A DNA stretch of 25,903 nucleotides from Bdellovibrionales bacterium (GCA_043785205.1 JAYVXM010000029.1:1-25903); one strand, 5' to 3'; positions 5,827 through 19,539 are shown, counted from the first letter of the stretch. Notes: generated by a model not told the origin, from the letters alone. A program made the numbers and translations.

Positions 5827-8800
5827 TCAAGCGCATCGCCATACTCGTCGCCCTTTCGTCCCTTTCCGCTCACGCGGAAAACCTGATCCTCACCGGCCGG
5901 AGCGGCGACCTCGCCCGTTTCAGCGCGAACGCGACGAAGCAATTCGTCGTCGAGCCGCTCTTCACCCCGGGTGAGCAACGCATCCTCACTCGGCTCGGAA
6001 AGTCGGATATGGCGGCTTCGCTCCTCGTCCAACCGGGGAATGCGACGGCCGACGTGAATCTCCGGGCGAAGCACCTTCACCTGAGGGTGGAGATGGACCG
6101 GAAGGTCAAGGTGAAGTCCGCCGGACGCGATCCGCTCATGAGCGAACTCTGGGGAATTTCGAACAACGGCGACCCGCGGAAGTTCTACCTGGATAACTTC
6201 ACCTCGATCGTGGTGAAGGGCGTGAAGGGAGAAGACGTGAATCTTCCTTCCTCCTCCAACGAAGGAAAGGGGATCGTCGTCGCGATCCTCGACTCCGGGT
6301 TCGACACGAAACATCCGGACCTCGCGGGCCAGTTCGTCACGAAACCCGCCGAATGCGCGAACCTCGAGAAATATCTCGCCTGCGTGGCCGACGCGAAATC
6401 TCAGGATAAGCTGCCCACGGCCTGCGACGCCCAGTACATGAAGCTCGACACCGACGGAAACGGCTACCCGATGGACTGCCACGGATGGAACTTCGTGGGC
6501 AAAAAGAACAAATTTTCGAATCAATACGGAACGCCCGATATCGCGGAACAGTTTTCCGAAGGCTCCGGGCACGGAACGAAGGTCGCCGGCGTCGTCGGCG
6601 CGCTGGCCGATAACGGACTCGGCGTGCGCGGAATCGCGCCCGGCGTGAAGATCCTCGGTGTACGCGTGATCAGCGAAGACGCGAATCCGACCACCGGCGG
6701 AATCGCCAAACCGGATCAAGCGGTCAGCCTCGTCTCGACCGTCGTTCGCGGAATGCTCTACGCGATCTCCGAAAAAGCGAACGTGATCAATCTCTCGCTC
6801 GGCTGGAACGGGCGCGCCGATTCTCCACTCATGCGGGACGCGGTGAAGACCGCCCAGGCCGCGGGGATCATCGTGGTCGCCGCCGCCGGAAACGATTCGA
6901 CGGACGCGCTCGTTTATCCGTGCCAGTATACAGGAGTCGTTTGCGTCGGATCTCACGATCCGGACGGCAAGTTGTCGGAATTCTCGAACTTCGGCTCCGG
7001 CGTCGATATCGCCGCGCCGGGATTCAGCATTCTTTCGACGATCGATCAGGACGCGGATCCGATCTATTTCACCGACCGCCAAGGCTACGATTTCGACAGC
7101 GGGACCTCCTTCGCGTCGCCGTACGTCGCGGGCGCGATCGCCATCATTCGCTCCCAAGGCTTCAGCGTGAACGAGTCGATCGCGCGTCTCCTCGTCGGCG
7201 CTCGTCCGAAAGCCTACTCCGAAGGAAAGGTCGTTTTGACTGGAAATCTCGATGTCTCGCGCGCCCTCCGCGCTTCGCCGCGTCCGTTCTTCACGCCGGA
7301 AAACAAAGGAATCTATCCGCTGATCTGGGACCGCGCGAAAAACACGGCCGCCCTCGGCATTGATCTGAAGGATATTTGGACGAGCGCGCGGACCGTAAAG
7401 GCTCACCTCTCACTCTCAAAGCGGGACGAAGCCCTCGGTCAGATTCGGATCGATCAGCCGGATCTCACGCTTTCGAACTGGATGTCGGGCCAGGTCCACA
7501 CGCTCGAGACTTCTCTCACCATCCTCGATCCGAAAGTGACGAGCGACGCCACGCTCGTATTGGAGATCTCGGCCGATGGGTTCCCGAGCCAAAAAATCCG
7601 CGTTCCGCTCCAGATGTCGGTCGTGCTTGAAAAGGAAACCAAGCTGCCGAACGCCCAAACGATTCCCGTCCGCGGAACGGTCAATCCGAACGGAGTGATT
7701 TTCTCCATCCAATCGGCCGACGGACGCCCGGAACAGGATTACGTCGCGATCGAACAGGGCGACACCGAATGGAAGTATCAGATTATCCGCGAAGTGCGCG
7801 GAAGCGGCGGATCGAGTTACGTCGCCGGCGCGATCAAGTCGCTTCCGGCGGTTCCGAACGGATCCCCGCGGACGGCCCAACGCCTCGACGTGAACCTCGA
7901 CGGGAAACCCGATTACGTCTTCTCGGTGTACGTCCCGAGTCAGGAAGAAGATCACCTTCCGTACTTCCGCTTCGATTACCGAGACGCGGATGGAAACGAC
8001 GTTCTTCCCTCGTACCTTTTCAAAAACCGCACCTCGGTCCTCCAACTCGATCGCTTCCAGTGGATCCGTTCTGGAAATCGGCTCGTCCAGGCATGGAACG
8101 GCGTCGGCTTAACTCCGAAGGCCGAACAGGAGAAGTTCGATCCGTGGAATCCGAACAAATATAAAAACGAGGAAACCGACGCCCGCCTTTACTATCACGA
8201 TCCGGCGACGGAAGACGGCGTTCGTTCGCTCGCGATTCCGAAGGACGCGAGCCTCTCGAAGGACATGGCCTACCTTTCGCTGCTGAATCAAAGTCGAAGC
8301 GACGTCGCCGCCGGGAAGATCTCCTCCGTGATCACGGAAACCGGTGACTACGTGGCGAAGACCTATGCCGTCGAATTCAGCTCGACCGCGGATCCCGGAC
8401 GCGTCTATCCGATCGAAACGCCGAAGTTCCGAAACCTGCGTTCCGTCGAGGGAGTGAAAGCGTTCCCGCTCGATCCGAATCCGATCGCGGTGGCGACGAT
8501 GTTTTCCACGACTTCGGGAGTTCAATCCCAGCGCATCGGCGGAGTCGTGAAGGCCGGCGATCGTTACCTTCTGCTCGATCGCTCGATGACTCCGGAGGCC
8601 GCCGCGGACACTGTCTACAAGACGATCGCCGCATTTTCCGAAGGTTCGGCGGCGGCGCCGACCGGTATCGCCGCCTTCGCCCAGGCGAATTACGACGTCC
8701 TCTACCAGGACTCGACGACGAACCGAAATTTGTCGACGTCCCTTCGTCGGTATACGTTCCTCGCCTCGTCTCTCTTCGAGCGGACCTTCATTCCGGCGGT

Positions 8801-9056
8801 CGCGGAGACCGGTGGCGAGCGCGTCGCCGCCATTCAGATCCCGGACGGATTCGGCGCCTACCCCGGGGCGGAGCTGATCGTACCGTTACGCAAAAACGGC
8901 ATCAGCGTGGACCTCATCCGCCCGGCGGCCCTACGGATCCAAATCGGCTCCGATAGCTGCGACTGGCTCGCCCGTACCGATCCGTCGGCGGACGCTCCAT
9001 CTCAGGCCGTCTATTTCTGTGGGGACCGCTTTATTCGGCTCCCATACCGATTTTAA
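5823..9056 (+). CDS. Secreted S8 (subtilisin-like) serine peptidase with long C-terminal extension (1077 aa)
   Basis: Signal peptide ending SAHA; catalytic motifs VAILDSG (Asp), GHGTKVAG (His), AAAGND (oxyanion Asn), SGTSFASP (Ser); DTDGNGYPMDCHGWNF insertion typical of S8 enzymes. Confidence 0.95.
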   Translation: MIKRIAILVALSSLSAHAENLILTGRSGDLARFSANATKQFVVEPLFTPGEQRILTRLGKSDMAASLLVQPGNATADVNLRAKHLHLRVEMDRKVKVKSAGRDPLMSELWGISNNGDPRKFYLDNFTSIVVKGVKGEDVNLPSSSNEGKGIVVAILDSGFDTKHPDLAGQFVTKPAECANLEKYLACVADAKSQDKLPTACDAQYMKLDTDGNGYPMDCHGWNFVGKKNKFSNQYGTPDIAEQFSEGSGHGTKVAGVVGALADNGLGVRGIAPGVKILGVRVISEDANPTTGGIAKPDQAVSLVSTVVRGMLYAISEKANVINLSLGWNGRADSPLMRDAVKTAQAAGIIVVAAAGNDSTDALVYPCQYTGVVCVGSHDPDGKLSEFSNFGSGVDIAAPGFSILSTIDQDADPIYFTDRQGYDFDSGTSFASPYVAGAIAIIRSQGFSVNESIARLLVGARPKAYSEGKVVLTGNLDVSRALRASPRPFFTPENKGIYPLIWDRAKNTAALGIDLKDIWTSARTVKAHLSLSKRDEALGQIRIDQPDLTLSNWMSGQVHTLETSLTILDPKVTSDATLVLEISADGFPSQKIRVPLQMSVVLEKETKLPNAQTIPVRGTVNPNGVIFSIQSADGRPEQDYVAIEQGDTEWKYQIIREVRGSGGSSYVAGAIKSLPAVPNGSPRTAQRLDVNLDGKPDYVFSVYVPSQEEDHLPYFRFDYRDADGNDVLPSYLFKNRTSVLQLDRFQWIRSGNRLVQAWNGVGLTPKAEQEKFDPWNPNKYKNEETDARLYYHDPATEDGVRSLAIPKDASLSKDMAYLSLLNQSRSDVAAGKISSVITETGDYVAKTYAVEFSSTADPGRVYPIETPKFRNLRSVEGVKAFPLDPNPIAVATMFSTTSGVQSQRIGGVVKAGDRYLLLDRSMTPEAAADTVYKTIAAFSEGSAAAPTGIAAFAQANYDVLYQDSTTNRNLSTSLRRYTFLASSLFERTFIPAVAETGGERVAAIQIPDGFGAYPGAELIVPLRKNGISVDLIRPAALRIQIGSDSCDWLARTDPSADAPSQAVYFCGDRFIRLPYRF

Positions 9057-9065
9057 CCGGGACCG

Positions 9066-9087
9066 AAGTGGCCCCGCGGCCACTTTT
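9066..9087 (+). terminator. Probable intrinsic terminator after the S8 gene
   Basis: Stem AAGTGGCC/GGCCACTT with 4-nt loop, 10 nt after the stop; only a short T run (TTTT), so weak. Confidence 0.5.
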
Positions 9088-9192
9088 CGCACCCCCGAAC
9101 TTGCCAATAATGCGATGCGTTGTTACGGTCCCCCTGTCCGTTAACCCGCCAAGAATCAGGAGGTTATCGGTCGAGCTCTTCCCGTCGACCCT

Positions 9193-9209
9193 TTGGCACA
9201 TCGACTGCA
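9193..9209 (+). promoter_or_regulatory. Sigma54 (RpoN) -24/-12 promoter candidate
   Basis: TTGGCAC-ATCGA-CTGCA: GG-N10-GC spacing exact, one mismatch to TGGCAC-N5-TTGCA; 65 nt upstream of the lipoprotein ATG. Confidence 0.65.
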
Positions 9210-9273
9210 CTAAGGCTTCGTGAAGGTTTCAGTTTTGAACCTCAGTCCCAAAACACTTTAGGAGTGAAACGGT

Positions 9274-10044
9274 ATGAATAAGTCCCTTTTGAATCAATCC
9301 CTGATGGGCCTCGCGGGCATTGCGATGCTGGCCGGCCTAGCCGGCTGTAACGGCAGTTCCGGGGGCGGCGGCGGCAGCGTTATCGTCATCGATCCGATCG
9401 TTTATGCTTGGTTTGACGTGTATGGAAATGGCTGCGCGACCGCGGCGGCCGGCCCAAGCCCTGGCTGTAACTATTATGCTTACGGAAATAGCCTCGTGAA
9501 GATCATGGACTTCGAAGATCCGTACTTCAACAGCTCCTACCTCCCGCAATACGACAGCTGGACCTACTACCTCAACGGCGTGCTTTATCAGTATGACGGC
9601 TGGGCGTGGCTCTCGCCAAACGGGATTCTGTATGATGACGCTGGCAATGCGTTGAACAAGAAAAAAGGCTCCGGCGGCCGCGACATGGTTCGCGACGTTG
9701 CCCAAGCCGAAGCGAAGATCGTCGACAAGGCCGGTAAGGACCTCGCCGCGAAGTACAACCTCTCCGTTTCGAAGGGCGTGCAAATTGCCCGCACTCTGAA
9801 CGAATGGGCGAACATCGGCAAGCAACGCGCGAAGACCGAAAAGGACTTCGCCGAGTTTTCGCAGAAGCTTTACGGCGTCGACTACACTCGCGTGAAGAAC
9901 GCCGTTCTTTCCGCGATGAACGGCGACAAGGCTGACATGAAGGCCACCGTCGCTGACGCTGCGAAAAACTGGGGAACGAACGAAGAAACGATGAAGCAAG
10001 TTCTCAAGAATTGGTATCGCGACCAAGTTCCAGGCCTCGATTGA
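9274..10044 (+). CDS. Lipoprotein of unknown function (256 aa)
   Basis: Lipobox LAGC, Gly/Ser linker, Tyr/Trp-rich N-domain and helical Lys/Ala-rich C-domain; SD TTAGGAG; own terminator. Confidence 0.9.
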   Translation: MNKSLLNQSLMGLAGIAMLAGLAGCNGSSGGGGGSVIVIDPIVYAWFDVYGNGCATAAAGPSPGCNYYAYGNSLVKIMDFEDPYFNSSYLPQYDSWTYYLNGVLYQYDGWAWLSPNGILYDDAGNALNKKKGSGGRDMVRDVAQAEAKIVDKAGKDLAAKYNLSVSKGVQIARTLNEWANIGKQRAKTEKDFAEFSQKLYGVDYTRVKNAVLSAMNGDKADMKATVADAAKNWGTNEETMKQVLKNWYRDQVPGLD

Positions 10045-10073
10045 TCGATTCCTAGTCACAATCACTGAGAAGA

Positions 10074-10103
10074 CCCCGGGAGAGAAATCTCCCGGGGTTT
10101 TTT
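10074..10103 (+). terminator. Rho-independent terminator (possibly bidirectional)
   Basis: 10-bp stem CCCCGGGAGA/TCTCCCGGGG, GAAA tetraloop, followed by TTTTTTCTTT; between convergent genes. Confidence 0.9.
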
Positions 10104-10147
10104 CTTTCAATGACCTGTGAGCCTAAACCAAAAGGTAGGCCAGACGC

Positions 10148-11038
10148 CTATTTATTCACGGTCGTGACGGCTTCGCCACCGCGGTCATCGCGGAGGACGA
10201 CGATCACGCTCGTCACCGCCGGAAGCGGGTTCGCCGGCGTATAGCGGTTTTCGACACCCGGATCGGTTCGGGTGTACCGAATTTCGCCGGCGGTCACGAG
10301 CCAGGTGACGGTGAGTTTTTCGACTTTCGTCTCGGGCGTCCCATTCGAATCGACGAGGGTATAAGTTTCGGCGGCGCCGGTCCCCGCGGCGGAGTTCACG
10401 GGGAAGAGGTCGGTCGTGAGGGTGTAGGTCGCGGCGTCGACGCCGTTAAACGTGAGCGCCGGCGAACCGAACGTCGGGTTCTGGTTCTTCGTCGCCTTCG
10501 TCGAAACGATCACGCGCTTGAAAGCGGTGACGGCTTCGGTCGGAGACGCGACGAGGTTCAGGATGACGAGGTAGCCGACCCCATTCGTCTGCTGGTACGC
10601 GGGTCGGGGCGAACCGGTTCGCGGATCGAGGAAGACGATTCCGGCGGCGGGAATCGTGAACGCGGGCGTCGTGAGGACGCCATAGAAATTCGTCGCCGCG
10701 CTCCCCGGGGTGAACGATCCGGAGGCCGTGATCACCGTTCGGGTCGGATTCCCCGCGCAGGTCGGCGTCGCTCCGATCCCGACTCCGGGATCGACGCAGG
10801 ACTCGAGGGAATACGTGAGCGCGCGGCCGGCGCCGCGCGGATCGGAGACGTGAAACGCGACTTGGATTCCGGCGTCTCCGGCGTTGAATTCCGCGGCGGC
10901 GCCGACCACGTTCGCGGCTAGCACGCGGAGGCGGTCGAGGAGGAAATAATCCGGGAGATCGTTCGTGCCGCAACCGACGGCGGCGGCGGCGAGGACCATC
11001 GGAGGAAGACACTGGCGAAAGATTTTCGCGAACCCCAT
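10148..11038 (-). CDS. Lipoprotein, probable partner of the TonB-dependent receptor (296 aa)
   Basis: Lipobox AVGC; DRLRVLA near N-terminus and LRDDRGG near C-terminus; start overlaps the receptor stop (TGATG). Confidence 0.85.
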   Translation of the reverse strand: MGFAKIFRQCLPPMVLAAAAVGCGTNDLPDYFLLDRLRVLAANVVGAAAEFNAGDAGIQVAFHVSDPRGAGRALTYSLESCVDPGVGIGATPTCAGNPTRTVITASGSFTPGSAATNFYGVLTTPAFTIPAAGIVFLDPRTGSPRPAYQQTNGVGYLVILNLVASPTEAVTAFKRVIVSTKATKNQNPTFGSPALTFNGVDAATYTLTTDLFPVNSAAGTGAAETYTLVDSNGTPETKVEKLTVTWLVTAGEIRYTRTDPGVENRYTPANPLPAVTSVIVVLRDDRGGEAVTTVNK

Positions 11039-13392
11039 CAGAACTCCCCTTTCACGCCGAACGACGGAATGATCGGCAACCCCGTCACGTCGGTTCGTTT
11101 CGAATAGTCGTAGGAATAACTCACGTTTTCGACGTTCTTATGGTTCGTCGCGTTTTGGACGTCAAGATACGCGGTCAGGATGAGCGTGTTGAAGATCCAT
11201 TTCTTATCGGCCCGTATATCGAGTTGATAAAACGGTCCGACGCGCTCGCTGTAGTACGGACCGCGAATCGGAACGTACGCGTCGTTATCCGCGTCGAAAG
11301 TGGCGCCGATGACCGGCGTGATCGGATTCCCGGTAACGTACCGGAATCGCCCGGCGACCCGCCAGTTTCGGGGGAGATCCCGGCCGACGATCAGATTGAA
11401 ATTATGGGTCTGATCGTACGCCGAAGGGTACGTCGGCTGGCCCGGCGACTCGCGGATACTCCGCCCGATCGTATAGGAAAGCCACCCGTTCCAGGGATTC
11501 GCCTCCAAGCGGAGGAGCATTTCGAGTCCGTAGGCGTGACCGGTTCCGCCGTTATTATAGAATTCCGGTGAGGCGACGCCGTTTTTCGTGACGAGCGCGG
11601 TCGACGGAATCACGAGGTGATCGAATTTTCGGTAGAACGGCCCGCCCGTGAAGATGAACCCGTTCGAAGAGCCGGCCCGAAAATCCTCTTCGTAACCGAT
11701 CGCGAGGTGGGTGGCGCGCGGGGCGGTCAAATTCGGATTTCCGACCTGGTCGCTCGTCTCCTGGGGTTGGGGCGGCTGGTAGTAGAGTCCGGTCGCGAAA
11801 CGAAACGAACGGAAGGGCGTGAGCGCACGCTTGATCGCGAATCGCGGAGAGACGTGGGCCTCGTTGATCGCACTGAAGTAATCGAAACGAAGTCCGGGTT
11901 TCAGCGACCAGGCGGTCGAAAGGCGAAGGTCGTTATTCAGATAGGCGCCGACGTTCTGGCTCGTCGACACGATCCCGACCTTACGCTGTTCGCCGGTAGA
12001 AACGGGATTCGAAACCCCGCCGGCGGAATAGAAGTTCGGAAAATTCAGGTCGACCCTCGCCCACCCGAACGAATTATCGAGCCCGAAATACGAAGCGAAA
12101 CTTTCGGTCCAGTGATGCTCGAGCTCGTAACGGTTCGAAATCGTATAGAGGTAAAGTCGGAAATACTGGTCGTCGAGATCGAACTTCACCCAGTCCTTCC
12201 CTAGACCGAGCGAAAAACGGCTGACCGTGCGATCGCTGTGCCGATGGGTCCACTGCGGAATAAGGCGAACGAACGAAGTCTTCGTGTCGAAATTTCCGCG
12301 GATCTTCGGGTCGTTTTCGGGCGGGTCCTTCAAGACGAACCCGAGCGAGTCCTGAGACGCGATCAGGTCGAAGCGGAAATCGTCGCGCTCGGAAAGGGGA
12401 GTATCGTAGACGAGGGTAAAGTCGGTGAAGGTCGGCGCGGCCGTGAGGTCGGTCTTGTCGCTCTTGTCGCTCTTGTCGTCTTTCTTGTGACTTTCGGCTG
12501 CCTTCAGGAGCTCTCCGATATAGCTCCGCCGAAAACCGAGCGTCAGCGATCCCTTCTCCCCGACCGGCGTTTCGATCGCGGCGCCGGCATTGATGAAGTC
12601 GGCGTAGGCGAAACCCTTCAACCGGTCGCGATCCGGCTTCCGCGTCCAGACGCCGACGATCCCGCCCATCGCTCGCCCGTACTCGACACCGTAGCCGGCG
12701 GAAAGATAATCGACGCGTTCGAGCGCCTCGGGAAGCACGACCGAAGAAAACCCGCCGAAATGGAAGATGATCGGGACTTCGTGGCCGTCGATCGTATACC
12801 GGGTATCCTGGGGCGCCGAACCCTGGATGATGACCTGGGAGGAGAAGCTCGCGGCGCGGGAGACGCCGGGCATGTTCTGGACCGCCTTGATCGGGTCGTT
12901 GTTCGCGCCGGGAAGTTTTTGGGCGAGCGACGCCTTCAAACTCTTCGCCGAGTCGTCGCCGGAATCGAGCTTTCCGTACACGGTCGTTTCGTAAACTTGG
13001 TACGAATCGCGTTCGAGATAGAGCGTCCGTTCGACGGCGCCGTCGGCGGGCCACTGTTCCGTCTTGCGCGAATAGCGAACGTAACCCGTCACGTTCACGA
13101 GAAGTTCGAACTCGCCTTCCGGCACGCCCTCGATTCGAAAACGGCCGACGGCGTCCGTCATCCCCTTGAGTTTCGCGGGGAGCACGTACACGTTCGCGTC
13201 CGGTACCGGCTTCTGGGTTCCTTTTTCGACGAGGCGCCCGGAGACGACGAGCGTCGCCGCGTTCGGATCGACTTCGGACGAAACCGGCCCGAGCGACGCG
13301 ACGGGCGTCGGCGAGGCCGCGTTCGCAGCGAACGGTCCGAATTCGCCGAGGAGGAGGAGGAAAGCAAGGAGGACCGGTTTCATCGATTTCAA
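11038..13392 (-). CDS. TonB-dependent outer-membrane receptor with N-terminal carboxypeptidase-regulatory-like domain (784 aa)
   Basis: Signal peptide; VSGRLVEKGTQKPVPDANV...TDAVGRFRI N-domain; plug VQNMPGV...YTIDGHEV...LERVDYLSAGYGVEYGRAMGGIV; LKPGLRFDYF barrel strand; C-terminal GVKGEF. Start TTG 13392 (alternative ATG 13383). Confidence 0.93.
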   Translation of the reverse strand: MKSMKPVLLAFLLLLGEFGPFAANAASPTPVASLGPVSSEVDPNAATLVVSGRLVEKGTQKPVPDANVYVLPAKLKGMTDAVGRFRIEGVPEGEFELLVNVTGYVRYSRKTEQWPADGAVERTLYLERDSYQVYETTVYGKLDSGDDSAKSLKASLAQKLPGANNDPIKAVQNMPGVSRAASFSSQVIIQGSAPQDTRYTIDGHEVPIIFHFGGFSSVVLPEALERVDYLSAGYGVEYGRAMGGIVGVWTRKPDRDRLKGFAYADFINAGAAIETPVGEKGSLTLGFRRSYIGELLKAAESHKKDDKSDKSDKTDLTAAPTFTDFTLVYDTPLSERDDFRFDLIASQDSLGFVLKDPPENDPKIRGNFDTKTSFVRLIPQWTHRHSDRTVSRFSLGLGKDWVKFDLDDQYFRLYLYTISNRYELEHHWTESFASYFGLDNSFGWARVDLNFPNFYSAGGVSNPVSTGEQRKVGIVSTSQNVGAYLNNDLRLSTAWSLKPGLRFDYFSAINEAHVSPRFAIKRALTPFRSFRFATGLYYQPPQPQETSDQVGNPNLTAPRATHLAIGYEEDFRAGSSNGFIFTGGPFYRKFDHLVIPSTALVTKNGVASPEFYNNGGTGHAYGLEMLLRLEANPWNGWLSYTIGRSIRESPGQPTYPSAYDQTHNFNLIVGRDLPRNWRVAGRFRYVTGNPITPVIGATFDADNDAYVPIRGPYYSERVGPFYQLDIRADKKWIFNTLILTAYLDVQNATNHKNVENVSYSYDYSKRTDVTGLPIIPSFGVKGEF
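12453..12479. repeat. 9-bp tandem repeat x3 inside the receptor gene
   Basis: TCTTGTCGC-TCTTGTCGC-TCTTGTCGT, encoding the DDKSDKSDK stretch. Confidence 0.8.
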
Positions 13393-13401
13393 GGATCTCC
13401 G

Positions 13402-14070
13402 CTAGCGTTCCAAAACGAAATTATAGGCGAATTGAATTTCTACGGCGACCGGGTGGTCCTGGACTCGCGCCGGCCGAAAGTGGAAATTCTTCATCGCATC
13501 GACCGCCGCCTCGTTCAAACCATATCCGGGGCCGGAAATGAGTATCGCGCGTCGCACGCCGCCGGCGGCGTCGATCAGGAGCTTCATCAGGACCCGGCCC
13601 TGGACCTTCGCCTTCCGCGCCCCGGCCGGATAGGGGATGCGAAAATCCGTCTCGAGAACCGGCATCGCGGAAACGAGGTATTCCTCCGTCGGAATCGGAA
13701 TCGAGTCGGCGTCGTCGGTCCGAAGCTTCTCCGAGTCGGGATGCTTCGCGATCGTATTCCCGGCCTTCACCGCCGCCGCGTTCGGGTCCCCGGTCGCGTC
13801 CATCAACGCGTGCCGAGACGCCCCGAAAACGGAACGTTTTTCGGGCTCTTTTTTCGGGGGGATCAGCTTCGTGATCTGGATCGGAGCCTGGGTGGCGAGC
13901 TTCGGCGCCTCGTAGACTTCGAAATCGACGAGATCGCGTCGACTTCCCCATGGAAAGAGGACAAGTGCGATCGTGAGCGCGAATCCGACGTGAATTCCGA
14001 CCGAAACGCCGAGGGGACTTCGCCAGAACGGTAAGCGATCGGTCGAAAGGGCGTTCGCCGCGGAAGTCAT
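13402..14070 (-). CDS. tonB: Energy transducer TonB (222 aa)
   Basis: N-terminal TM helix SVGIHVGF (S-x3-H), Pro/Lys linker, C-terminal YPAGARKAKVQGRV...LNEAAVDAMKNFHFRPA TonB_C domain. Confidence 0.93.
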   Translation of the reverse strand: MTSAANALSTDRLPFWRSPLGVSVGIHVGFALTIALVLFPWGSRRDLVDFEVYEAPKLATQAPIQITKLIPPKKEPEKRSVFGASRHALMDATGDPNAAAVKAGNTIAKHPDSEKLRTDDADSIPIPTEEYLVSAMPVLETDFRIPYPAGARKAKVQGRVLMKLLIDAAGGVRRAILISGPGYGLNEAAVDAMKNFHFRPARVQDHPVAVEIQFAYNFVLER

Positions 14071-14495
14071 GGACCCGTTTTCTCGGGGCGTTCGATTTGG
14101 AGGGCGAACCGATTCATCCCGGCGCTCTTCACGAGGTCGATCGCACGGACGACGTCCGCATGACGGGAATCCCCGTCGGCGGCGATGATCGCCTGGGAAT
14201 CGGGATTCTTAGCCAGCGCGGCCTTCACCGCCGCGGTTACCGCTTCCTCGGTCGCGATCGTACCGTTCACGAGGATCTGGCCCTGCCGAGTGACCGCGAT
14301 TCCGAGCGTCTCGATCGCGGATCCGTCCGCGGCGGAGGCCTTCGGAAGCTTGATGCCGAGAGTATCCTTTACCAGCGCCGGCGCGGTGACGATGAAGATC
14401 ACGAGGAGGACGAGCACGACGTCGACGAACGGGGTGACGTTGATGTCCGAAATGAGCGGATCGTCCTCGGTCGAAGACGGGAGACTCGCGGCCAT
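14067..14495 (-). CDS. exbD: Biopolymer transporter ExbD/TolR (142 aa)
   Basis: SDINVTPFVDVVLVLLVIFIV with conserved TM Asp; IIAADGD motif; start ATG 14495 overlaps exbB stop (TGATG), stop overlaps tonB start (ATGA). Confidence 0.93.
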   Translation of the reverse strand: MAASLPSSTEDDPLISDINVTPFVDVVLVLLVIFIVTAPALVKDTLGIKLPKASAADGSAIETLGIAVTRQGQILVNGTIATEEAVTAAVKAALAKNPDSQAIIAADGDSRHADVVRAIDLVKSAGMNRFALQIERPEKTGP

Positions 14496-15115
14496 CAGAC
14501 CCGATCCCGAAGGATGAAGCGCGAAAGGTAAAGATCGCGGATCGATTCGCAATCTGCCAGGGCGCCCTTGATTCGCGTCGAAAAGGTATTATAGGCGACC
14601 ACGGCCGGAATCGCGACGAAGAGGCCGATCGCGGTCGCGATGAGCGCCTCGGCGAGCGAAAAGATGACCTGGTTCATCGCCGCGCTCGAGGTGGCAAGGG
14701 CGCCGAAGGACTGGATGATCCCGAGAACGGTTCCGAAGAGCCCGATGAACGGCGCGTTCGATCCGAGCGTGGCGAGCACGGAAAGTCCGCGCGAAAGGTC
14801 GGCGCGTTGGTCGGCCAAGTAGGAGCGTTGGGCGTAGGCGATCGCTTCGCTCCCCTGCGGGGCCGCGAGAATTTCGCGCATCGATCCGGCCTGGAGCGAG
14901 GTTCCCTTGAGGGCCCAGCCCTTGAGGCCGGCCGCGTCTCCCGAACGGATCATTTCGCGCGCGCGCGCGGAATCCGAATCCGTCACGTAAGCGCCGATTT
15001 TCTTCCGCCGATCGATCATGATCGCGCCCGACCATACGGAAAGGACGAGGAGAAGGACGAGGACGAGCTTCGTCGCGAAGCCGATCAGATGGATCCAGGT
15101 CGGGGTCGATGCCAT
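14495..15115 (-). CDS. exbB: MotA/TolQ/ExbB proton channel protein (206 aa)
   Basis: LATLGSNAPFIGLFGTVLGIIQSF and AEALIATAIGLFVAIPAVVAYN motifs; likely start ATG 15115 (longer ORF would overlap the ferredoxin). Confidence 0.93.
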   Translation of the reverse strand: MASTPTWIHLIGFATKLVLVLLLVLSVWSGAIMIDRRKKIGAYVTDSDSARAREMIRSGDAAGLKGWALKGTSLQAGSMREILAAPQGSEAIAYAQRSYLADQRADLSRGLSVLATLGSNAPFIGLFGTVLGIIQSFGALATSSAAMNQVIFSLAEALIATAIGLFVAIPAVVAYNTFSTRIKGALADCESIRDLYLSRFILRDRV

Positions 15116-15158
15116 AGCCTGTAGGGCTAACGGAGAACCGTGAAAACTTCCAGAACTG

Positions 15159-15488
15159 TCAGGGAATTCCGATCTCGACCCGGAGCGAAAATTCCACAGT
15201 TTCGGGAAAGCACTGGCAAGCGAGACGGTAACCCGCGGCGAGCTCGGCTTTCGTGAGATGACGTCGCTCCGCATCCGTGATCCGGGAGAGCCGAGGCGCC
15301 GGATCGAGGATGCGAATCCGGTCCCCGCCGCAGATTCCGTGGCCGCCGCACCGTGACCCGACCTCGAGCTCGAGGGTCTGGGCGTGGGCGAGCAGATTCA
15401 GGTTCGGTTCGACGAAATCGACCGTCGCGACGTGTGTCGTCGTCCCGTTTTCACGGCGGACGAATTCCGTACGGGGAACACTCGTCAT
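15159..15488 (-). CDS. [2Fe-2S] ferredoxin-like protein with Asp at third ligand position (109 aa)
   Basis: SRCGGHGICGGD and RLACQC motifs; start overlaps the nucleotidase stop (TAATG). Confidence 0.85.
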   Translation of the reverse strand: MTSVPRTEFVRRENGTTTHVATVDFVEPNLNLLAHAQTLELEVGSRCGGHGICGGDRIRILDPAPRLSRITDAERRHLTKAELAAGYRLACQCFPETVEFSLRVEIGIP

Positions 15489-17428
15489 TACGGGGCGGTC
15501 ACGTTCCGGAAACGGCCGTCGACTTTCGCTTCGATCTTCCCGGGATTCTTCGCGAGTTCGTCGGCGAGGATTTCCCGGAAAATCCCGAGATCGGCCAGCC
15601 GAGGCGCTTCCTTGAATTCGACGTAACCCGATCCACCCGCTTCGAGAAAGTCGAGGGTTCCTACCCGCAGTTCCCGATTCGAGATCTTCACGTTCGCCGG
15701 ATCGCGGGCGTCGTACAGCATTTCGCCGTCCTTGCCGCCGTCGTCGAGGGCGATCGTCAGAACCGCGGCGTTTGGATCGTTCCCGTCGGAATCCGGCGTC
15801 TTGCAGTCGCCGCGGCGGTACGTGACCCGTACGCCGGAACCGAGCACCGCGCCCGCTCTACCGCAGGTCCGGGCTGCATGGCTGTAGATCTTCACGAGCG
15901 TCGGAACCTTCATCGGTCCGAGGACGACCGCGTGGTTATTGAAGGGAGAGATGGCGTAGAGCTTCTCGTAACTGAACGGACCGACGTCGATGATCGTACG
16001 GACACCGCCGGTATTGATCAACGTCAAGTCGACTCCCGTGGCTTTCCGATACGTGTCGGTCAGGAAGTTCAGAAGGGCGCTCTCGTTCACGCCGTCCTTT
16101 AGAATCGGCGCTTCGGCGTAACCGAGGTTACGGTCCTTCATCGGCGCGATGTCCTTTTCACCGGCGGCAATCTTCGTCAGCGACGTCTCGGTCTCGACGA
16201 CCGGTTCGCATTCGTAAGTCAGGCGCACGCCCACGTTCTGCTCGCAGAACGCGTCGATCTGCCCGTCGCATTCGTGTTGAAACAGCATGGCGCCCGCGGC
16301 GACCCGGGTTTTTTCGCGAATGATTTTCTTCGCCTTCGTATCGACCACGAGATCGATCCGGCCGAACCGTTCGCCGTTCGCTCCGGACTGAATGCCGTAG
16401 ACCCCGTTCGAGTTCACGAGATTGATCGAATGGGTATGGCCGCCGATGACGGCGTCGACCGCGTCGGGCCGGTAGGCCTGGAGCGCTTGGATCAGCTTCG
16501 TAAGATTCTTTTCGTTATTGATGTCGCCGTCGTGGATGACGAGGACGAAAACGTCGGCCTTCCCTTCGAGGGATTCCCGGACGGACTTGTACTCGTCGGC
16601 CGGATTCCGGAAGCAGAGATCGCTTACGTTCGCGGCGGTCGTGAGCGTCGGGGTGCTCGGGTTATCGAGTCCGATGATCGCGACGCGTACGCCGGAGACG
16701 TTCTTGAGCAGGTAGGACTTCAGGAACTCCGGGCGCTCGGCGTGGGACCAGTCGAGCGGTCCGGTCGACTCGCAGCCTTCGGATTGAACGGTCGCCGGTT
16801 TTCCGTCGAGGGTTTTCAACGACGCCTTCAGATAGGCGTTCGACGAAAGGAGCGGAAACGGAGCCGCGTTCGCGAGCTTCTTGATCACGCCGCGGGGATC
16901 TCCGGTCGATCCCGCGGGAACTTGGTCGACGAGCCAGCCTTCGGGACCGAAATCGTAGTCGTGATTCCCCGGCACGACGGCGTCGTAGCCGACGTCGGCG
17001 AAGAGGGAGAACATGAGCGCGCCTTCCGAGTAGTTCGAGAGGAGCGTCCCTTGAAATTGGTCGCCGCCGTCGAGAACGAGGAGGCCGCCGCGCTCTCCGT
17101 AACGCTTCGTCATCCCATCGCGAACCGATTTCACGGCGCCGGCCCAGAAGGCCATCCCGCCGTACGGCTTCCCGTCCTTCGTCATTTTCGGTTCGATCGC
17201 GCCGTGGATATCGTTCGTCGCGAGGATCGAAAGGAGCGATTCGTTCGCGGCGAGCGCGACGGGCTGTTTCGAGCAGGTCAGCGTCGGTGCCGGAGCGAGC
17301 GGGACGCCGCCGCCCTCCGCCGCCGGGCTCGGTGCCCGTCCTCGGTGTCGGCTATCGCAGCCGACCGTCGCGAAAACGAGAGCGGAAACCAGGGAACCGA
17401 AAACCATCGACCGCGTGTTCAAATTCAT
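15488..17428 (-). CDS. Lipoprotein 5'-nucleotidase / UDP-sugar hydrolase (UshA-like, 646 aa)
   Basis: Lipobox TVGC; metallophosphoesterase motifs TNDIHG, LDGGDQFQG, GNHDYDFG, GGHTH; C-terminal nucleotidase domain NTGGVR...SPFNN. Confidence 0.93.
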   Translation of the reverse strand: MNLNTRSMVFGSLVSALVFATVGCDSRHRGRAPSPAAEGGGVPLAPAPTLTCSKQPVALAANESLLSILATNDIHGAIEPKMTKDGKPYGGMAFWAGAVKSVRDGMTKRYGERGGLLVLDGGDQFQGTLLSNYSEGALMFSLFADVGYDAVVPGNHDYDFGPEGWLVDQVPAGSTGDPRGVIKKLANAAPFPLLSSNAYLKASLKTLDGKPATVQSEGCESTGPLDWSHAERPEFLKSYLLKNVSGVRVAIIGLDNPSTPTLTTAANVSDLCFRNPADEYKSVRESLEGKADVFVLVIHDGDINNEKNLTKLIQALQAYRPDAVDAVIGGHTHSINLVNSNGVYGIQSGANGERFGRIDLVVDTKAKKIIREKTRVAAGAMLFQHECDGQIDAFCEQNVGVRLTYECEPVVETETSLTKIAAGEKDIAPMKDRNLGYAEAPILKDGVNESALLNFLTDTYRKATGVDLTLINTGGVRTIIDVGPFSYEKLYAISPFNNHAVVLGPMKVPTLVKIYSHAARTCGRAGAVLGSGVRVTYRRGDCKTPDSDGNDPNAAVLTIALDDGGKDGEMLYDARDPANVKISNRELRVGTLDFLEAGGSGYVEFKEAPRLADLGIFREILADELAKNPGKIEAKVDGRFRNVTAP

Positions 17429-17574
17429 AGGCGTGGAGTACCCCGGACGCAGCAGGGTGTCAATTGGGCGAAACCCCTCCTAAGTCGGTGATAACCACTC
17501 GAAATAAAACACTTTTATCCAAAAAATCGGATCAGTGGGGGTGCCGAAAAAGACGGAATTCTGACACTCCCTTT

Positions 17575-17600
17575 TTAAGGGCGAAATCGCGTTCCGATGT
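17575..17600 (+). promoter_or_regulatory. Possible sigma28 (FliA)-type promoter
   Basis: TTAA-N14-TCCGATGT versus TAAA-N15-GCCGATAA; 44 nt upstream of ATG 17645. Spacing and ends are imperfect. Confidence 0.3.
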
Positions 17601-17644
17601 CACACTAGGAAGTGAGGAATGGCGTGAAAAAAGAGAGAGCTAGG

Positions 17645-18709
17645 ATGGCTCGTTTCAATTTCAATCTCGGTTTTTTTGGATCCGGCGGCGAGCGAATCGC
17701 GCTCGGTCTTCTCCTGGCCGCACTCCTGATCGAGAGCGCCCCTACCCACGCGGCCGGCCGGCCGGTCATGGGCAAGCCGGCGATCCTGAAGAAGGTCCAA
17801 CGCGACTACTGCACCCGACTTTTCGAAAGAGAGTGGGTCGCCGCCATCGGAAAAATGGGCGAGCCCGTCTCGAAGAACGGATTCAAATTCGGCGTCGGGA
17901 CGAAGATGGCCGTGAAGGTCGATACCGGCAAAGCGGCCGAAGGGGTCTTTCTCGGCCGGCTCGTCGACGTCGAATATAAAACAACGGGCTATCTCTTCGA
18001 AGATATCGGAGAGATGAAAAATTACGTGATCGATCCGGAGCGAACGAAGATCCTATTCGGAGGTAAAGTCGTTCCCGATTCCGCGATGCAGCCGATCGTC
18101 GAAACCGTCGAGCAACGGGGAGATACCTGCGCCACCTACAGCGTCGAAAACTATTTTTCCCAGCTCCTCGCCGCCAAGCGGGAAGGAAACGGCGAACTTC
18201 GGAAGGCGCTCGAAGGCGCTCTCGGCCACGCCGATATTCGGCAAATCGCCGACGACTATTACCTGAAAACGCGGGGTGGCGCGAACTTCGATCCGGTCTT
18301 CAAGGAGATCGGCGATAAATACGGATACGCCTGCAAAACGATCAAGTTCGCGAACGCCGCCCAGTTCACGTCCCGGGTTTCGGCCGCGATCGCGGGCGGC
18401 GTGCCCGTTCTCCTCGAGTTCTACATCGGAAAGAACATGGTGAAGGCCGAAGACCAGTGGGTGAATACGCTCGCGAAGACCGGCGAGGATCGTCGCTTCT
18501 GGCCACCGCGCGCGCTCGGCGACCGGAGCGGCGGCGGACACGCACTCGTCGCGGTCGAAACCTTCCAATCCGGAAGCGATCGGCTGAAGCTCCTGATCTC
18601 GGATTCGGATTGGAACAAGCGTCCGATCAGCTGGGACTACGAGAAGTATTTCGAATCCCGCGCGAAATCGAGCGGTATGATCGCCCATTTCTGCGAGAAC
18701 GCGAAATAG
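17645..18709 (+). CDS. Secreted papain-fold (C1/C39-like) cysteine peptidase candidate (354 aa)
   Basis: Hydrophobic signal ending THA; EQRGDTCATYS (Gln...Cys), GVPVLL, GGHALVAV (His), LISDSDW (Asp where papain has Asn). Start ATG 17645 preferred. Confidence 0.7.
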   Translation: MARFNFNLGFFGSGGERIALGLLLAALLIESAPTHAAGRPVMGKPAILKKVQRDYCTRLFEREWVAAIGKMGEPVSKNGFKFGVGTKMAVKVDTGKAAEGVFLGRLVDVEYKTTGYLFEDIGEMKNYVIDPERTKILFGGKVVPDSAMQPIVETVEQRGDTCATYSVENYFSQLLAAKREGNGELRKALEGALGHADIRQIADDYYLKTRGGANFDPVFKEIGDKYGYACKTIKFANAAQFTSRVSAAIAGGVPVLLEFYIGKNMVKAEDQWVNTLAKTGEDRRFWPPRALGDRSGGGHALVAVETFQSGSDRLKLLISDSDWNKRPISWDYEKYFESRAKSSGMIAHFCENAK

Positions 18710-18740
18710 CCGGCGCTCATGGGTCGCATCGGTCGTGCAC

Positions 18741-19481
18741 CTATTGAAAAATGAATTCGATCCTCGGGGCTTCCGACGAAGGCGCGCGTCCCTCTTCGGC
18801 TCCGAGCTTTTTCCGACGCATCGTCGTCGAGATCCGTTCGTCTTCAACGAGCTTGTGGTCGACGAGGAAGCGCGCGACGGCGACGGTGCGCGCAACCTGA
18901 AAATCGTAGTTACCGGTTTCGGTCGTACCCCAAGCGCCGCGGATCGTGAGTTTTCCGCGCTCCTGGTTCTTCGCGAGCTTGCCGATCTTTTGGAAGATTT
19001 TCTCGATGCCGACCTGCCATTGGTCGGTCGTGCCGGGCTGGAAGAGATCGCTCTCGAGAACCGAGAAGCGCATGACTTCGACCATCACTTTATCGCCCGA
19101 GCTCGCGAGTTTCGCGACGGCGTCCGAAGCGTCTTCGGCCTGGGTGTTTCCTTCGAGGACGGGCTTCGAAGGCTTTTGGACGAGATCTTCGGGCACTTCG
19201 CCTTCGGCGCCTTTGAGTACGCTTTCACCCGCGCCGGTCTTGTCGCCAAGGGGAACGTTTTCTTTACTCGAAAGATCCACCCGAAGGGCGGAGGTCGGAT
19301 TATTGAAATAATTCGCGATCGCGGCCTTCACTTCTTCGTCGGAACCCATAAGCCACATCACGAGGAAGAAGCACATCAGGGCGGTCATGAAGTCGGCAAG
19401 CGCCACCTTCCACGCTCCGCCGTGCGCTCCGGCGTGACCGCCTTTTTTCTTCCTGATGATGATGGGTTGCTTCTCAGCCAC
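18741..19481 (-). CDS. motB: Flagellar-type stator protein MotB, degenerate OmpA-like domain (246 aa)
   Basis: IIIRKKKGGHAGAHGGAWKVALADFMTALMCFFLVMWL with the conducting Asp; GTG start after AAAAGGA. Confidence 0.92.
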   Translation of the reverse strand: MAEKQPIIIRKKKGGHAGAHGGAWKVALADFMTALMCFFLVMWLMGSDEEVKAAIANYFNNPTSALRVDLSSKENVPLGDKTGAGESVLKGAEGEVPEDLVQKPSKPVLEGNTQAEDASDAVAKLASSGDKVMVEVMRFSVLESDLFQPGTTDQWQVGIEKIFQKIGKLAKNQERGKLTIRGAWGTTETGNYDFQVARTVAVARFLVDHKLVEDERISTTMRRKKLGAEEGRAPSSEAPRIEFIFQ

Positions 19482-19539
19482 GAGGATTCCTTTTTATTTC
19501 AGACCGCACACTTCAATAAATCCGGACGGGAACGATCGC

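What the first reader, a model, noticed from the sequence alone, without database searches (positions are those of the whole stretch)
10148..17428. Seven-gene operon joining a lipoprotein 5'-nucleotidase and an odd ferredoxin to a dedicated ExbB-ExbD-TonB-receptor-lipoprotein import set
Seen: one strand, junctions TAATG, 43 nt, TGATG, ATGA, 9 nt, TGATG; no room for a riboswitch before exbB and no Fur box recognised. Known: Ton systems import siderophores, cobalamin, glycans; UshA-type enzymes release nucleosides and phosphate. Inference: a private energised uptake route for nucleotides/nucleotide cofactors (NAD, FAD, cobamides) or nucleic-acid breakdown products, with periplasmic dephosphorylation; the ferredoxin could reduce an imported metal/cofactor. 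I know of no described system with this composition.
Basis: partly seen in the sequence, partly recalled or inferred. Interest (0 to 1): 0.68.

Follow-up and report, generated by a model that had tools for sequence, protein, structure and literature searches.

The report
Ton import module beside nucleotidase and ferredoxin
The seven genes are real and tightly packed, but they are best read as a widespread, self-contained outer-membrane import module (motor, receptor and an unnamed partner lipoprotein) that only one clade of predatory-type Bdellovibrionota has placed behind a nucleotidase-ferredoxin pair, so a nucleotide-import role is possible but unproven.

Summary
Observation confirmed. There is no riboswitch and no E. 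coli-type Fur or Pho box.

Interpretation partly supported. The conserved unit is five genes: exbB-exbD-tonB, a CarboxypepD_reg-type receptor, and a 296-aa lipoprotein.
- The lipoprotein was found in 57 of 116 genomes of the order.
- Its family has no Pfam model but 2,597 cluster representatives. It folds as two beta-sandwiches.
- It always sits beside the receptor, even where the gene order is swapped.

The nucleotidase-ferredoxin-Ton arrangement occurs in three genera that form one clade on the receptor tree, so it arose once.
- It has been broken inside this genus (G005) and in G105.
- In most relatives the nucleotidase and the ferredoxin lie elsewhere.

exbB carries its own promoter-like element, placed for a leaderless transcript. 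In this genome it fills the 43-nt gap, and it moved with the module in G005. In this genus it matches the sigma-70 consensus poorly.

The cargo stays unproven.

The scan noted the same arrangement in two other genomes (e1-3369103, e1-700911).

Verdict: a new variant of a known kind, of moderate interest.

The parts
17435..17463 (-). Promoter-like element of the nucleotidase gene: TTGACA (17463-17458), 17-nt spacer, TACTCC (17440-17435), ending 6 nt before the ATG. This is leaderless geometry.
   Evidence: Read. Equivalent TTGACA/TTGACT-N17-TA.... boxes lie 6 nt before the ATG in three genus members. TANNNT is enriched genome-wide 6-7 nt before ATG. Not experimentally tested.
15488..17428 (-). 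Lipoprotein 5'-nucleotidase/UshA-family metallophosphoesterase, 646 aa.
   Evidence: Pfam Metallophos + 5_nucleotid_C. Weak NCBIfam hits to UshA and YfkN-type nucleotidases, all far below their cut-offs. PDB sequence matches to UshA and CD73 over residues 41-166. Metallophosphoesterase motifs NDIHG, GGDQFQG, GNHDYD and GGHTH, and lipobox ATVGC followed by Asp, are visible.
15159..15488 (-). Small cytoplasmic Fer2-type protein (109 aa) with a C-x5-C-x2-D ... C ligand set, overlapping the nucleotidase stop (TAATG).
   Evidence: Pfam Fer2, 25 bits. Nearest solved relatives are the RACo N-domain (3zyy) and NqrF, which have Cys where this protein has D56. Ligand conservation in 11 orthologues.
15116..15158 (-). 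43-nt gap holding a conserved promoter-like element: TGGAAG (15152-15147), 17-nt spacer, TAGCCC (15129-15124), 8 nt, then the exbB ATG.
   Evidence: Alignment A3 of 7 genus members, including G005 where lolA lies upstream. Same register in other genera with better boxes. No sigma-70 hit under the strict scan, so in this genus it is a weak or non-canonical promoter.
14495..15115 (-). ExbB proton-channel subunit, 206 aa.
   Evidence: PF01618, 104 bits. Start set by alignment with orthologues.
14067..14495 (-). ExbD, with its ATG overlapping the exbB stop (TGATG).
   Evidence: PF02472, 95 bits. Sequence.
13402..14070 (-). TonB, 222 aa, with an N-terminal membrane anchor and a TonB_C domain.
   Evidence: PF03544, 51 bits.
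11038..13392 (-). TonB-dependent receptor, 784 aa, with signal peptide, N-terminal CarboxypepD_reg-like domain, plug, barrel and C-terminal Phe.
   Evidence: Pfam. Only a marginal sequence match to a solved receptor. One of only 3 Plug-domain proteins found in this 93%-complete genome. ESM Atlas neighbours are ~770-aa CarboxypepD_reg-Plug receptors of Bacteroidota, Myxococcota and Gemmatimonadota.
10148..11038 (-). Receptor-partner lipoprotein, 296 aa, made of two tandem Ig/FN3-like beta-sandwiches. It belongs to an unnamed family.
   Evidence: No Pfam or NCBIfam hit. AlphaFold2 model with mean pLDDT 91. Only generic beta-sandwich matches in PDB and AFDB. Close shape matches only to unnamed Bdellovibrionota and Myxococcota clusters. 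2,597 cluster representatives at E<=1e-3. Adjacent to the receptor in all 39 loci examined, in either order. Invariant C81/C94, KNxNP and RDxRGG motifs.
10136..10150 (-). Terminator-like hairpin overlapping the lipoprotein stop codon. The next gene (9274-10044) is convergent.
   Evidence: weak consensus match only; ORF map.

Best explanation
The locus is a composite of two units.

Unit 1 (shown by comparative genomics) is an autonomous five-gene TonB-dependent outer-membrane import module. It consists of a dedicated ExbB-ExbD-TonB motor, a CarboxypepD_reg-type receptor, and an obligatory partner lipoprotein from a large, unnamed two-beta-sandwich family. By analogy with SusD, BtuG, XusB and other 'lid' lipoproteins, the partner most likely sits on the receptor and helps capture cargo (inferred). 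The module carries its own promoter-like element immediately before exbB, arranged for a leaderless transcript.

Unit 2 is a lipoprotein UshA-family nucleotidase translationally coupled to a small Cys3-Asp [2Fe-2S]-type protein, with its own leaderless-type promoter.

In one clade (three genera, including this one) unit 1 lies directly behind unit 2 with no terminator between them. Read-through co-transcription of all seven genes is therefore likely here (inferred), especially as the internal promoter is degenerate in this genus.

The ferredoxin shows a moderate, recurring association with Ton motors. The nucleotidase shows a weaker, single-origin association.

The cargo is not identified. My best guess, at about one in three, is nucleic-acid breakdown products (oligonucleotides or nucleotides) taken up as a nucleotide or phosphorus source, with the nucleotidase working in the periplasm.
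For: Module autonomy:
- exbB-exbD-tonB-TBDR-lipo is conserved across families of the order, while the gene upstream of exbB varies: LolA/SMC, class II RNR, CBS/MetRS, Tad, VTT, hemerythrin, DoxX.
- The lipoprotein was found in 57 of 116 genomes.
- Receptor and lipoprotein stay adjacent even where their order is swapped.
- In G005 the five genes plus the ~35-nt upstream element sit 20 kb away from the nucleotidase, behind lolA, and that genome has no fdx orthologue.

Promoter:
- Conserved fixed-register element in 7 genus members.
- A TA(G/A)NNN hexamer lies 6-8 nt before the exbB ATG in 19 of 25 loci. Mean promoter score is 6.68 against 5.92+/-0.19 for shuffles. Good boxes occur in g54 and g63, which also have nuc-fdx upstream.
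- Genome-wide TANNNT peak 6-7 nt before ATG.

Single origin of the seven-gene order: g1+g54+g63 form one clade on the receptor tree, with support 92/94.

Ferredoxin link:
- fdx lies beside the module in g1, g54, g63 and g33.
- It lies within 1.4-1.6 kb in two metagenomic loci.
- In G012 it sits directly upstream of a different TonB-ExbB-ExbD-ExbD set.
- Co-occurrence odds ratio with the lipoprotein is 5.9 (not corrected for phylogeny).

Cargo hint:
- 5'-nucleotidase in clade A; signal-peptide SNase nuclease in clade B.
- cNMP-binding protein plus metallophosphoesterase downstream in g26; His phosphatase and pstB-phoU(-phoBR) neighbours in three loci.
- Precedent of TonB-dependent DNA-utilisation loci (bioRxiv 10.1101/2025.03.18.642099).
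Against: - No transcript data exist. No RNA run holds this DNA, and laying four metatranscriptomes gave only scraps of unrelated ExbB/ExbD.
- In this genus the internal element matches sigma-70 poorly (5/12; -10 is TAGCCC, without the final T) and was not called by the strict scan. It could be an operator or UTR element rather than a promoter.
- In G008 the fdx-exbB gap is only 11 nt, which favours a true operon there.
- The whole neighbourhood (motAB ... S8 peptidase, dn256) is syntenic across the clade. Retention of nuc-fdx next to the module may therefore be neutral.
- Most module neighbours in other lineages are unrelated housekeeping or signalling genes, so the phosphate/nucleotide theme is post hoc and weak.
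- Six of seven unlinked fdx loci have no Ton gene nearby.
- The lipoprotein's location (surface or periplasm) and its contact with the receptor were not modelled.
- Mononucleotides are small enough for porins (textbook knowledge), so a TonB system would make more sense for oligonucleotides.
Confidence: 0.6

Rival explanations
1. One reading: one dedicated seven-gene operon. It would form a private energised route for nucleotides or nucleotide cofactors (NAD, FAD, cobamides), with periplasmic dephosphorylation by the nucleotidase and the ferredoxin reducing an imported cofactor.
For: - Tight junctions with no terminator inside.
- The same seven-gene order is retained in three genera at only 45-55% protein identity.
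- The gap shrinks to 11 nt in G008.
- The internal promoter is degenerate in this genus.
- A nuclease occupies an analogous position in another clade.
Against: - Single evolutionary origin, broken in G005 and G105.
- The module works without nuc or fdx in most lineages: 12 of 57 lipoprotein-positive genomes lack fdx and 21 lack the nuc orthologue.
- A conserved promoter-like element sits in the gap.
- No cobalamin, FMN, TPP or other riboswitch in the window or in 20 related loci, which argues against cobamide or flavin cargo.
- The ferredoxin has no signal peptide, so it cannot act on cargo in the periplasm.
Confidence: 0.2
2. The module imports an iron or other metal chelate. The Fe-S protein (and, in other lineages, hemerythrin) serves as a cytoplasmic reductase or iron/redox sensor, and the nucleotidase is an unrelated neighbour.
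For: - The ferredoxin associates with Ton motors in several arrangements, including a second, different Ton set in G012.
- Hemerythrin lies directly upstream of exbB in two loci and nearby in g63.
- An Rrf2 (Fe-S type) regulator sits next to fdx in G105.
- Precedents from established knowledge: FhuF, and XusC-type reductases (Price et al., bioRxiv 10.1101/2023.03.17.533168).
- Weak NCBIfam hits of the receptor to haem and FepA families.
Against: - No Fur box by the E. coli consensus.
- The receptor hits are 250-550 bits below the family cut-offs.
- No siderophore biosynthesis, periplasmic binding protein or ABC importer lies in any locus examined.
- fdx is absent from 12 lipoprotein-positive genomes and is unlinked in most genera.
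Confidence: 0.15
3. The module is not a nutrient importer. It would be an envelope machine (secretion, gliding or surface-protein handling) of the Oar/Glt kind known from Myxococcota, powered by a Tol/Exb-type motor.
For: - CarboxypepD_reg-type receptors include Oar (established knowledge).
- The lipoprotein family is shared with Myxococcota.
- motAB lies next to the locus in clade A.
- The genome holds 12 ExbD-family genes but only 3 plug-domain receptors.
Against: - The receptor has a plug domain above the Pfam cut-off and an ordinary ~780-aa size, unlike Oar, which is over 1,000 aa by established knowledge.
- The gene set is the canonical ExbB-ExbD-TonB-receptor set, with no Glt or Agl partners.
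- motAB adjacency is confined to clade A.
Confidence: 0.05

Closest known systems
TonB-dependent transporters with non-SusD accessory 'lid' lipoproteins (BtuG, XusB, HmuY, DUF4249, DUF4625 and DUF4876 families; Price, Deutschbauer & Arkin, bioRxiv 10.1101/2023.03.17.533168)
   Same: A receptor outside the SusC family is encoded next to, and on the same strand as, a lipoprotein. That adjacency is conserved across families, as here in 39 of 39 loci. The partner is an all-beta lipoprotein.
   Different: The lipoprotein matches none of those Pfam families, even at E<=5, and belongs to an unnamed family centred on Bdellovibrionota and Myxococcota. The module carries its own ExbB-ExbD-TonB. Contact with the receptor and surface exposure were not tested here.
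ddbABCDEF DNA-utilisation loci of gut Bacteroidales and the related Riemerella transformation locus (bioRxiv 10.1101/2025.03.18.642099)
   Different: The Ddb partner is DUF5689 with a DNA-binding fold; here it is a double beta-sandwich with no such match. Ddb loci hold endonucleases and no motor genes, no nucleotidase and no ferredoxin. Here the hydrolase is linked only in some clades, and no function has been shown. Homology between the receptor and DdbC was not tested because no DdbC sequence was available through the tools.
Periplasmic UshA / NadN / CpdB nucleotidase routes (E. coli UshA; Haemophilus NadN for NAD; V. cholerae phosphatases for eDNA use, PMC4714964)
   Same: A two-domain metallophosphoesterase / 5'-nucleotidase with all catalytic motifs and an export signal, which would release nucleosides and phosphate outside the cytoplasm.
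   Different: The protein is very divergent: 94 bits against a cut-off of 600 for UshA, and 41 against 436 for NadN. It is lipid-anchored. The known routes rely on porins rather than a TonB-dependent receptor.
Canonical exbB-exbD-tonB clusters with a cytoplasmic iron-sulfur or reductase partner in ferric-chelate uptake (FhuF; XusABC)
   Same: A Ton motor and receptor are encoded together with a small redox protein that could act on cargo after import.
   Different: The protein here is a Fer2-fold, RACo/NqrF-type domain with Asp in place of the third Cys, not FhuF or a FoxB/XusC membrane reductase. No Fur box and no inner-membrane importer are present.

Membership tests
TonB-dependent receptor (TBDT) | Plug domain followed by a 22-strand beta-barrel domain | tested here: met
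   PF07715 Plug, 36.4 bits (cut-off 23.9), and PF00593 barrel, 72.8 bits (cut-off 27). Plug also recovered by the genome search.
TonB-dependent receptor (TBDT) | Signal peptide and C-terminal aromatic residue for outer-membrane insertion | tested here: met
   N-terminus MKSMKPVLLAFLLLLGEFGPFAANA and C-terminal ...VKGEF, read.
TonB-dependent receptor (TBDT) | TonB box that engages TonB | not tested
   No motif search or complex model was run.
SusC/RagA subfamily with SusD partner | TIGR04056-type receptor of about 1,000 aa paired with a SusD-family (TPR-rich, helical) lipoprotein | tested here: not met
   No SusC/RagA NCBIfam hit. The receptor is 784 aa. The partner is all-beta with no SusD Pfam hit.
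ExbB-ExbD-TonB energising complex | MotA_ExbB channel protein, ExbD/TolR protein and a TonB_C protein encoded together | tested here: met
   PF01618 104.5 bits, PF02472 94.7 bits, PF03544 50.9 bits. Scores sit between the TolQ/R and ExbB/D equivalog models and below all their cut-offs. Assignment to Exb rather than Tol rests on the adjacent TonB and receptor.
UshA / 5'-nucleotidase family | N-terminal dimetal phosphoesterase domain with the DxH, GDxx(D/Q), GNH(D/E), H and GHxH motifs | tested here: met
   NDIHG, GGDQFQG, PGNHDYD, VIHDG and GGHTH seen in the translation. PF00149 29 bits. PDB matches to UshA and CD73 over residues 41-166.
UshA / 5'-nucleotidase family | C-terminal substrate-binding domain; membership of a named equivalog (UshA, NadN, CpdB/YfkN) | tested here: inconclusive
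   PF02872 matches only residues 446-503, at 41 bits. All NCBIfam equivalogs score far below their cut-offs. It is a family member, but substrate specificity cannot be assigned.
Plant/RACo/NqrF-type [2Fe-2S] ferredoxin (Fer2) | Fer2 fold | tested here: met
   PF00111, 25.1 bits (cut-off 21). Sequence matches to the RACo N-domain (3zyy) and NqrF.
Plant/RACo/NqrF-type [2Fe-2S] ferredoxin (Fer2) | Four cysteine ligands, C-x5-C-x2-C ... C | tested here: not met
   The third ligand position is Asp56. It is invariant in 11 orthologues, and only three Cys are conserved. Cluster binding is therefore unproven. 3Cys+Asp ligation is known from E. coli SdhB (established knowledge).
Ddb-type DNA-utilisation locus | DdbC-type receptor with a DUF5689 partner and co-encoded secreted nucleases | tested here: not met
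   The partner has no Pfam hit at E<=5 and a different fold. No nuclease lies in this window. An SNase is linked only in genus g33 and one metagenomic locus.

The most novel reading that the evidence does not exclude
The five-gene module would be a TonB-dependent importer for nucleic-acid breakdown products (oligonucleotides or nucleotides) in predatory-type Bdellovibrionota and Myxococcota. It would be built around a new family of receptor-partner lipoproteins and regulated or assisted by a Cys3-Asp iron-sulfur protein that works with the Ton motor. That would give a molecular candidate for the energy-dependent uptake of intact nucleotides reported for Bdellovibrio in the 1970s-80s (Rittenberg & Langley 1975; Ruby et al. 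1985; cited in PMC13689555). To my knowledge the outer-membrane component of that uptake has not been identified.
Probability: 0.2. Interest if true: 0.75.

Novelty: new variant of a known kind. Interest (0 to 1): 0.45.

Why it matters
1. The work defines a large, unnamed family of receptor-partner lipoproteins: no Pfam model, about 2,600 cluster representatives, and always next to a CarboxypepD_reg-type TonB-dependent receptor. This extends the 'lid lipoprotein' idea beyond Bacteroidota to Bdellovibrionota and Myxococcota.

2. It shows a recurring genomic link between an atypical Cys3-Asp ferredoxin-like protein and Ton motors. I know of no precedent for this.

3. If the cargo is nucleic-acid derived, the module would be a candidate outer-membrane step for nucleotide scavenging by predatory bacteria, and a second, independent case of TonB-dependent nucleic-acid uptake after the Bacteroidales Ddb loci.

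If none of this holds, the locus is an ordinary Ton uptake cluster with two unrelated neighbours.

Tried and rejected
- A single-sequence AlphaFold run of the lipoprotein was useless (pLDDT 34). The alignment-based run worked.
- The search for related loci with the 22-sequence alignment failed for lack of a conserved stretch. A 12-sequence alignment found only 8 loci.
- My first sample of 40 relatives suggested the nuc/fdx linkage was confined to one genus. The order-wide survey corrected this to three genera for nuc and four for fdx.
- I suspected that the 750-aa and 340-aa genes next to nucleotidase paralogues in other genera were another receptor-lipoprotein pair. Their N-terminal sequences looked instead like a PrkA-type protein and an RluA-type pseudouridine synthase (judged by eye and not scanned), so I dropped the idea.
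- A DUF4249 or other known lid-family relationship of the lipoprotein was not detected.
- A sigma-54 or ECF reading of TGGAAG-N17-TAGCCC was rejected because the spacing does not fit TGGCAC-N5-TTGC or GGAAC-N16-17-CGT (by inspection).
- The conserved TAG/TAA as an upstream stop codon was rejected, because it falls in all three frames relative to the ATG.
- Cobalamin or other cofactor riboswitches: none in the window or in 20 related loci.
- E. coli-type Fur and Pho boxes: none.
- RNA evidence: no RNA run holds the locus, and the four metatranscriptomes laid gave only 55-85-nt scraps of conserved ExbB/ExbD segments from other organisms.
- Annotating the module's neighbours in 15 more loci gave mostly unrelated genes.


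Full report
**Observation.** The window is a whole 25.9-kb contig of a 3.2-Mb metagenome-assembled genome (93% complete, 659 contigs). Names attached to its relatives place it in uncultured Bdellovibrionota: "Bdellovibrionia", "Bdellovibrionales", "Oligoflexia".

Seven minus-strand ORFs occupy 10148-17428. Pfam and NCBIfam identify them as follows:
- a Metallophos + 5_nucleotid_C protein with a lipobox;
- a 109-aa Fer2 protein;
- ExbB, ExbD and TonB;
- a CarboxypepD_reg + Plug + barrel receptor;
- a 296-aa lipoprotein with no family.

Rfam finds nothing in the window, and E. coli-type Fur and Pho boxes are absent.

**The conserved unit is five genes, not seven.** tblastn of the seven proteins against 13 related loci showed exbB-exbD-tonB-receptor-lipoprotein conserved across families of the order. 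The gene upstream of exbB differs between them: LolA/SMC, class II ribonucleotide reductase, CBS/MetRS, Tad, VTT.

An order-wide search of 116 species representatives found the lipoprotein in 57 genomes, the ferredoxin orthologue in 68 and the nucleotidase orthologue in 60. The receptor and the lipoprotein are adjacent in all 39 loci I examined. This includes lineages where their order is swapped, and loci that keep only tonB or no motor genes at all.

The lipoprotein family has no Pfam model, even at E<=5, yet it has 2,597 cluster representatives at E<=1e-3 in a 1.8-billion-protein library. An alignment-based AlphaFold2 model (pLDDT 91) shows two tandem Ig/FN3-like beta-sandwiches. PDB and AFDB give only generic matches. 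The only close shape matches are unnamed Bdellovibrionota and Myxococcota clusters.

This genome holds only three plug-domain receptors but twelve ExbD-family genes. A motor dedicated to this receptor is therefore plausible.

**How far the nucleotidase and ferredoxin linkage reaches.** The full seven-gene order occurs in seven genomes of the genus: G000, G002, G003, G004, G007 and G008, with G006 split across contigs. It also occurs in G095 (genus g54) and G106 (genus g63), at only 45-55% protein identity.

On a maximum-likelihood tree of the receptor these genera form one clade (support 92/94). The arrangement therefore arose once.

It has been undone twice.
- In G005, nested inside the genus, the order is motAB-nuc-S8. 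The five-gene module sits 20 kb away behind lolA, and no ferredoxin orthologue was found.
- In G105 an Rrf2 regulator and a short-chain dehydrogenase replace the nucleotidase.

Elsewhere the nucleotidase orthologue lies in a different conserved neighbourhood, next to a paralogue, and the ferredoxin stands alone in variable contexts.

Flanking genes (motAB, S8 peptidase, the 256-aa lipoprotein) are also syntenic within the clade. Neutral retention of the adjacency therefore cannot be excluded.

**The ferredoxin recurs next to Ton genes.**
- In genus g33 and in a metagenomic locus, the order is fdx, then a convergent signal-peptide SNase nuclease, then DoxX-exbB-exbD-tonB-lipoprotein-receptor.
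- In another metagenomic locus fdx lies 1.6 kb downstream on the other strand.
- In G012 it lies directly upstream of a different TonB-Aspzincin-ExbB-ExbD-ExbD set.
- Presence or absence of fdx and the lipoprotein correlate (45/12/23/36; odds ratio 5.9). The nucleotidase correlates less (odds ratio 2.5). Neither figure is corrected for phylogeny.
- Against a strict link: six of seven other fdx loci have no Ton gene within about 6 kb, and 12 lipoprotein-positive genomes lack fdx.

The protein itself is unusual. Three Cys plus Asp56 are invariant where RACo and NqrF have a fourth Cys. It has no signal peptide, so it must act in the cytoplasm.

**Promoters.** The 43-nt gap holds TGGAAG-N17-TAGCCC-N8-ATG. 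This element is conserved in register in seven genus members, including G005 where the upstream gene is lolA, while the sequence further upstream is not alignable.

Across 25 loci, 19 carry a TA(G/A)NNN hexamer ending 6-8 nt before the exbB ATG. The mean promoter score is 6.68 against 5.92+/-0.19 for shuffles. Internal genes of the module score lower.

In g54 and g63, which also have nuc-fdx upstream, the boxes are good: TTGTCA-17-TAGAAC and TTGAGC-17-TAACAC/TAATTT.

Genome-wide in G000, TANNNT peaks sharply 6-7 nt before ATG starts: 4.2% and 2.2% against a background of about 0.8%. This geometry is what a leaderless transcript requires. The nucleotidase gene has TTGACA-N17-TACTCC 6 nt before its ATG.

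I conclude that the module has its own start site in most lineages. In this genus the boxes are degenerate (5/12; not called by the strict scan) and no terminator separates fdx from exbB. Read-through from the nucleotidase promoter probably contributes here. None of this could be checked with RNA data.

**Cargo.** Nothing identifies it directly. There is no riboswitch in the window or in 20 related loci, which argues against cobamide, flavin or thiamine cargo.

Two different exported nucleic-acid hydrolases lie next to the module in two clades: a 5'-nucleotidase and an SNase. Other lineages show:
- a cNMP-binding protein plus a metallophosphoesterase co-directional downstream (g26);
- a histidine phosphatase;
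- convergent pstB-phoU(-phoBR) in three loci;
- a class II ribonucleotide reductase, and a Ham1 NTP pyrophosphatase.

Other neighbours are unrelated: MFS, Dus, radical SAM, GH3, GGDEF, cyclophilin and others. The theme was noticed after the fact, so I rate it as suggestive only.

Hemerythrin directly upstream of exbB in two loci, together with the Fe-S protein, keeps an iron-related reading alive.

**Comparison with known systems.**
- The receptor-lipoprotein pair resembles the non-SusD 'lids' of Bacteroides (bioRxiv 10.1101/2023.03.17.533168), but the lipoprotein belongs to none of those families.
The components there are different.
[quoted passage not shown] To my knowledge the outer-membrane component has not been identified. 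That is why the cargo question is worth testing.

**Verdict.** The locus is best described as a new variant of a known kind: a self-contained Ton import module with an unnamed partner lipoprotein family, joined in one clade to a nucleotidase-ferredoxin pair. Earlier first-stage notes from two other genomes describe the same or a related arrangement (e1-3369103, e1-700911), consistent with the survey here.

Noticed in passing
whole genome G000 (analysis of /data/genome.fa); examples at window 17435-17463 and 15124-15152: TANNNT hexamers peak sharply 6-7 nt upstream of ATG starts genome-wide (4.2% and 2.2% against about 0.8% background, in a noisy ORF set). This suggests that leaderless transcripts are common in this organism. 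A Shine-Dalgarno-like signal peaks separately 6-10 nt upstream.
   Followed up: partly
L029 (G012:C7) 5989-9577: In genus g5 the ferredoxin orthologue sits directly upstream of a second, different Ton set: TonB_C protein, Aspzincin_M35-like peptidase, ExbB, and two ExbD genes. It lies 140 kb from that genome's receptor-lipoprotein module.
   Followed up: partly
L060 (G105:C290) 8227-9284: In one g63 genome the nucleotidase position is taken by a divergent Rrf2-family (Fe-S type) regulator and a short-chain dehydrogenase, next to the ferredoxin gene.
   Followed up: no
L056 4461-4982; the P0183 locus; L059/L060 (hemerythrin beyond motAB): A hemerythrin gene lies immediately upstream of exbB, on the same strand, in two unrelated metagenomic loci, and nearby in genus g63.
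   Followed up: no
window 17575-17605 (minus-strand reading), with L015 and L018 equivalents: A short motif, T(T/G)GTGACATC, is conserved in three genomes in the divergent region between the nucleotidase gene and the 365-aa gene at 17612-18709. That gene has no Pfam hit but is conserved in G002, G003 and G004.
   Followed up: no
window 18741-20418: The real genes upstream are probably motA (19540-20418, -) and motB (18741-19481, -). The 317-aa plus-strand ORF at 18735-19688 that I used as a synteny marker is probably just the frame antisense to motB. motAB-nuc adjacency is conserved in G003, G005, G008 and G106.
   Followed up: partly
L027 12185-13440; same genes in L076 and L077 (genus g26): In genus g26 the receptor-lipoprotein pair is followed, co-directionally, by a cyclic-nucleotide-binding protein and a calcineurin-like metallophosphoesterase.
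   Followed up: partly
L050 (contig CAVYLT010000055.1, labelled Nitrospirota MAG) 7567-10834: A receptor-lipoprotein pair of this family (43% and 35% identity) sits without motor genes, next to transposase-like ORFs, in a MAG labelled Nitrospirota. This could be a binning error or a transfer.
   Followed up: no
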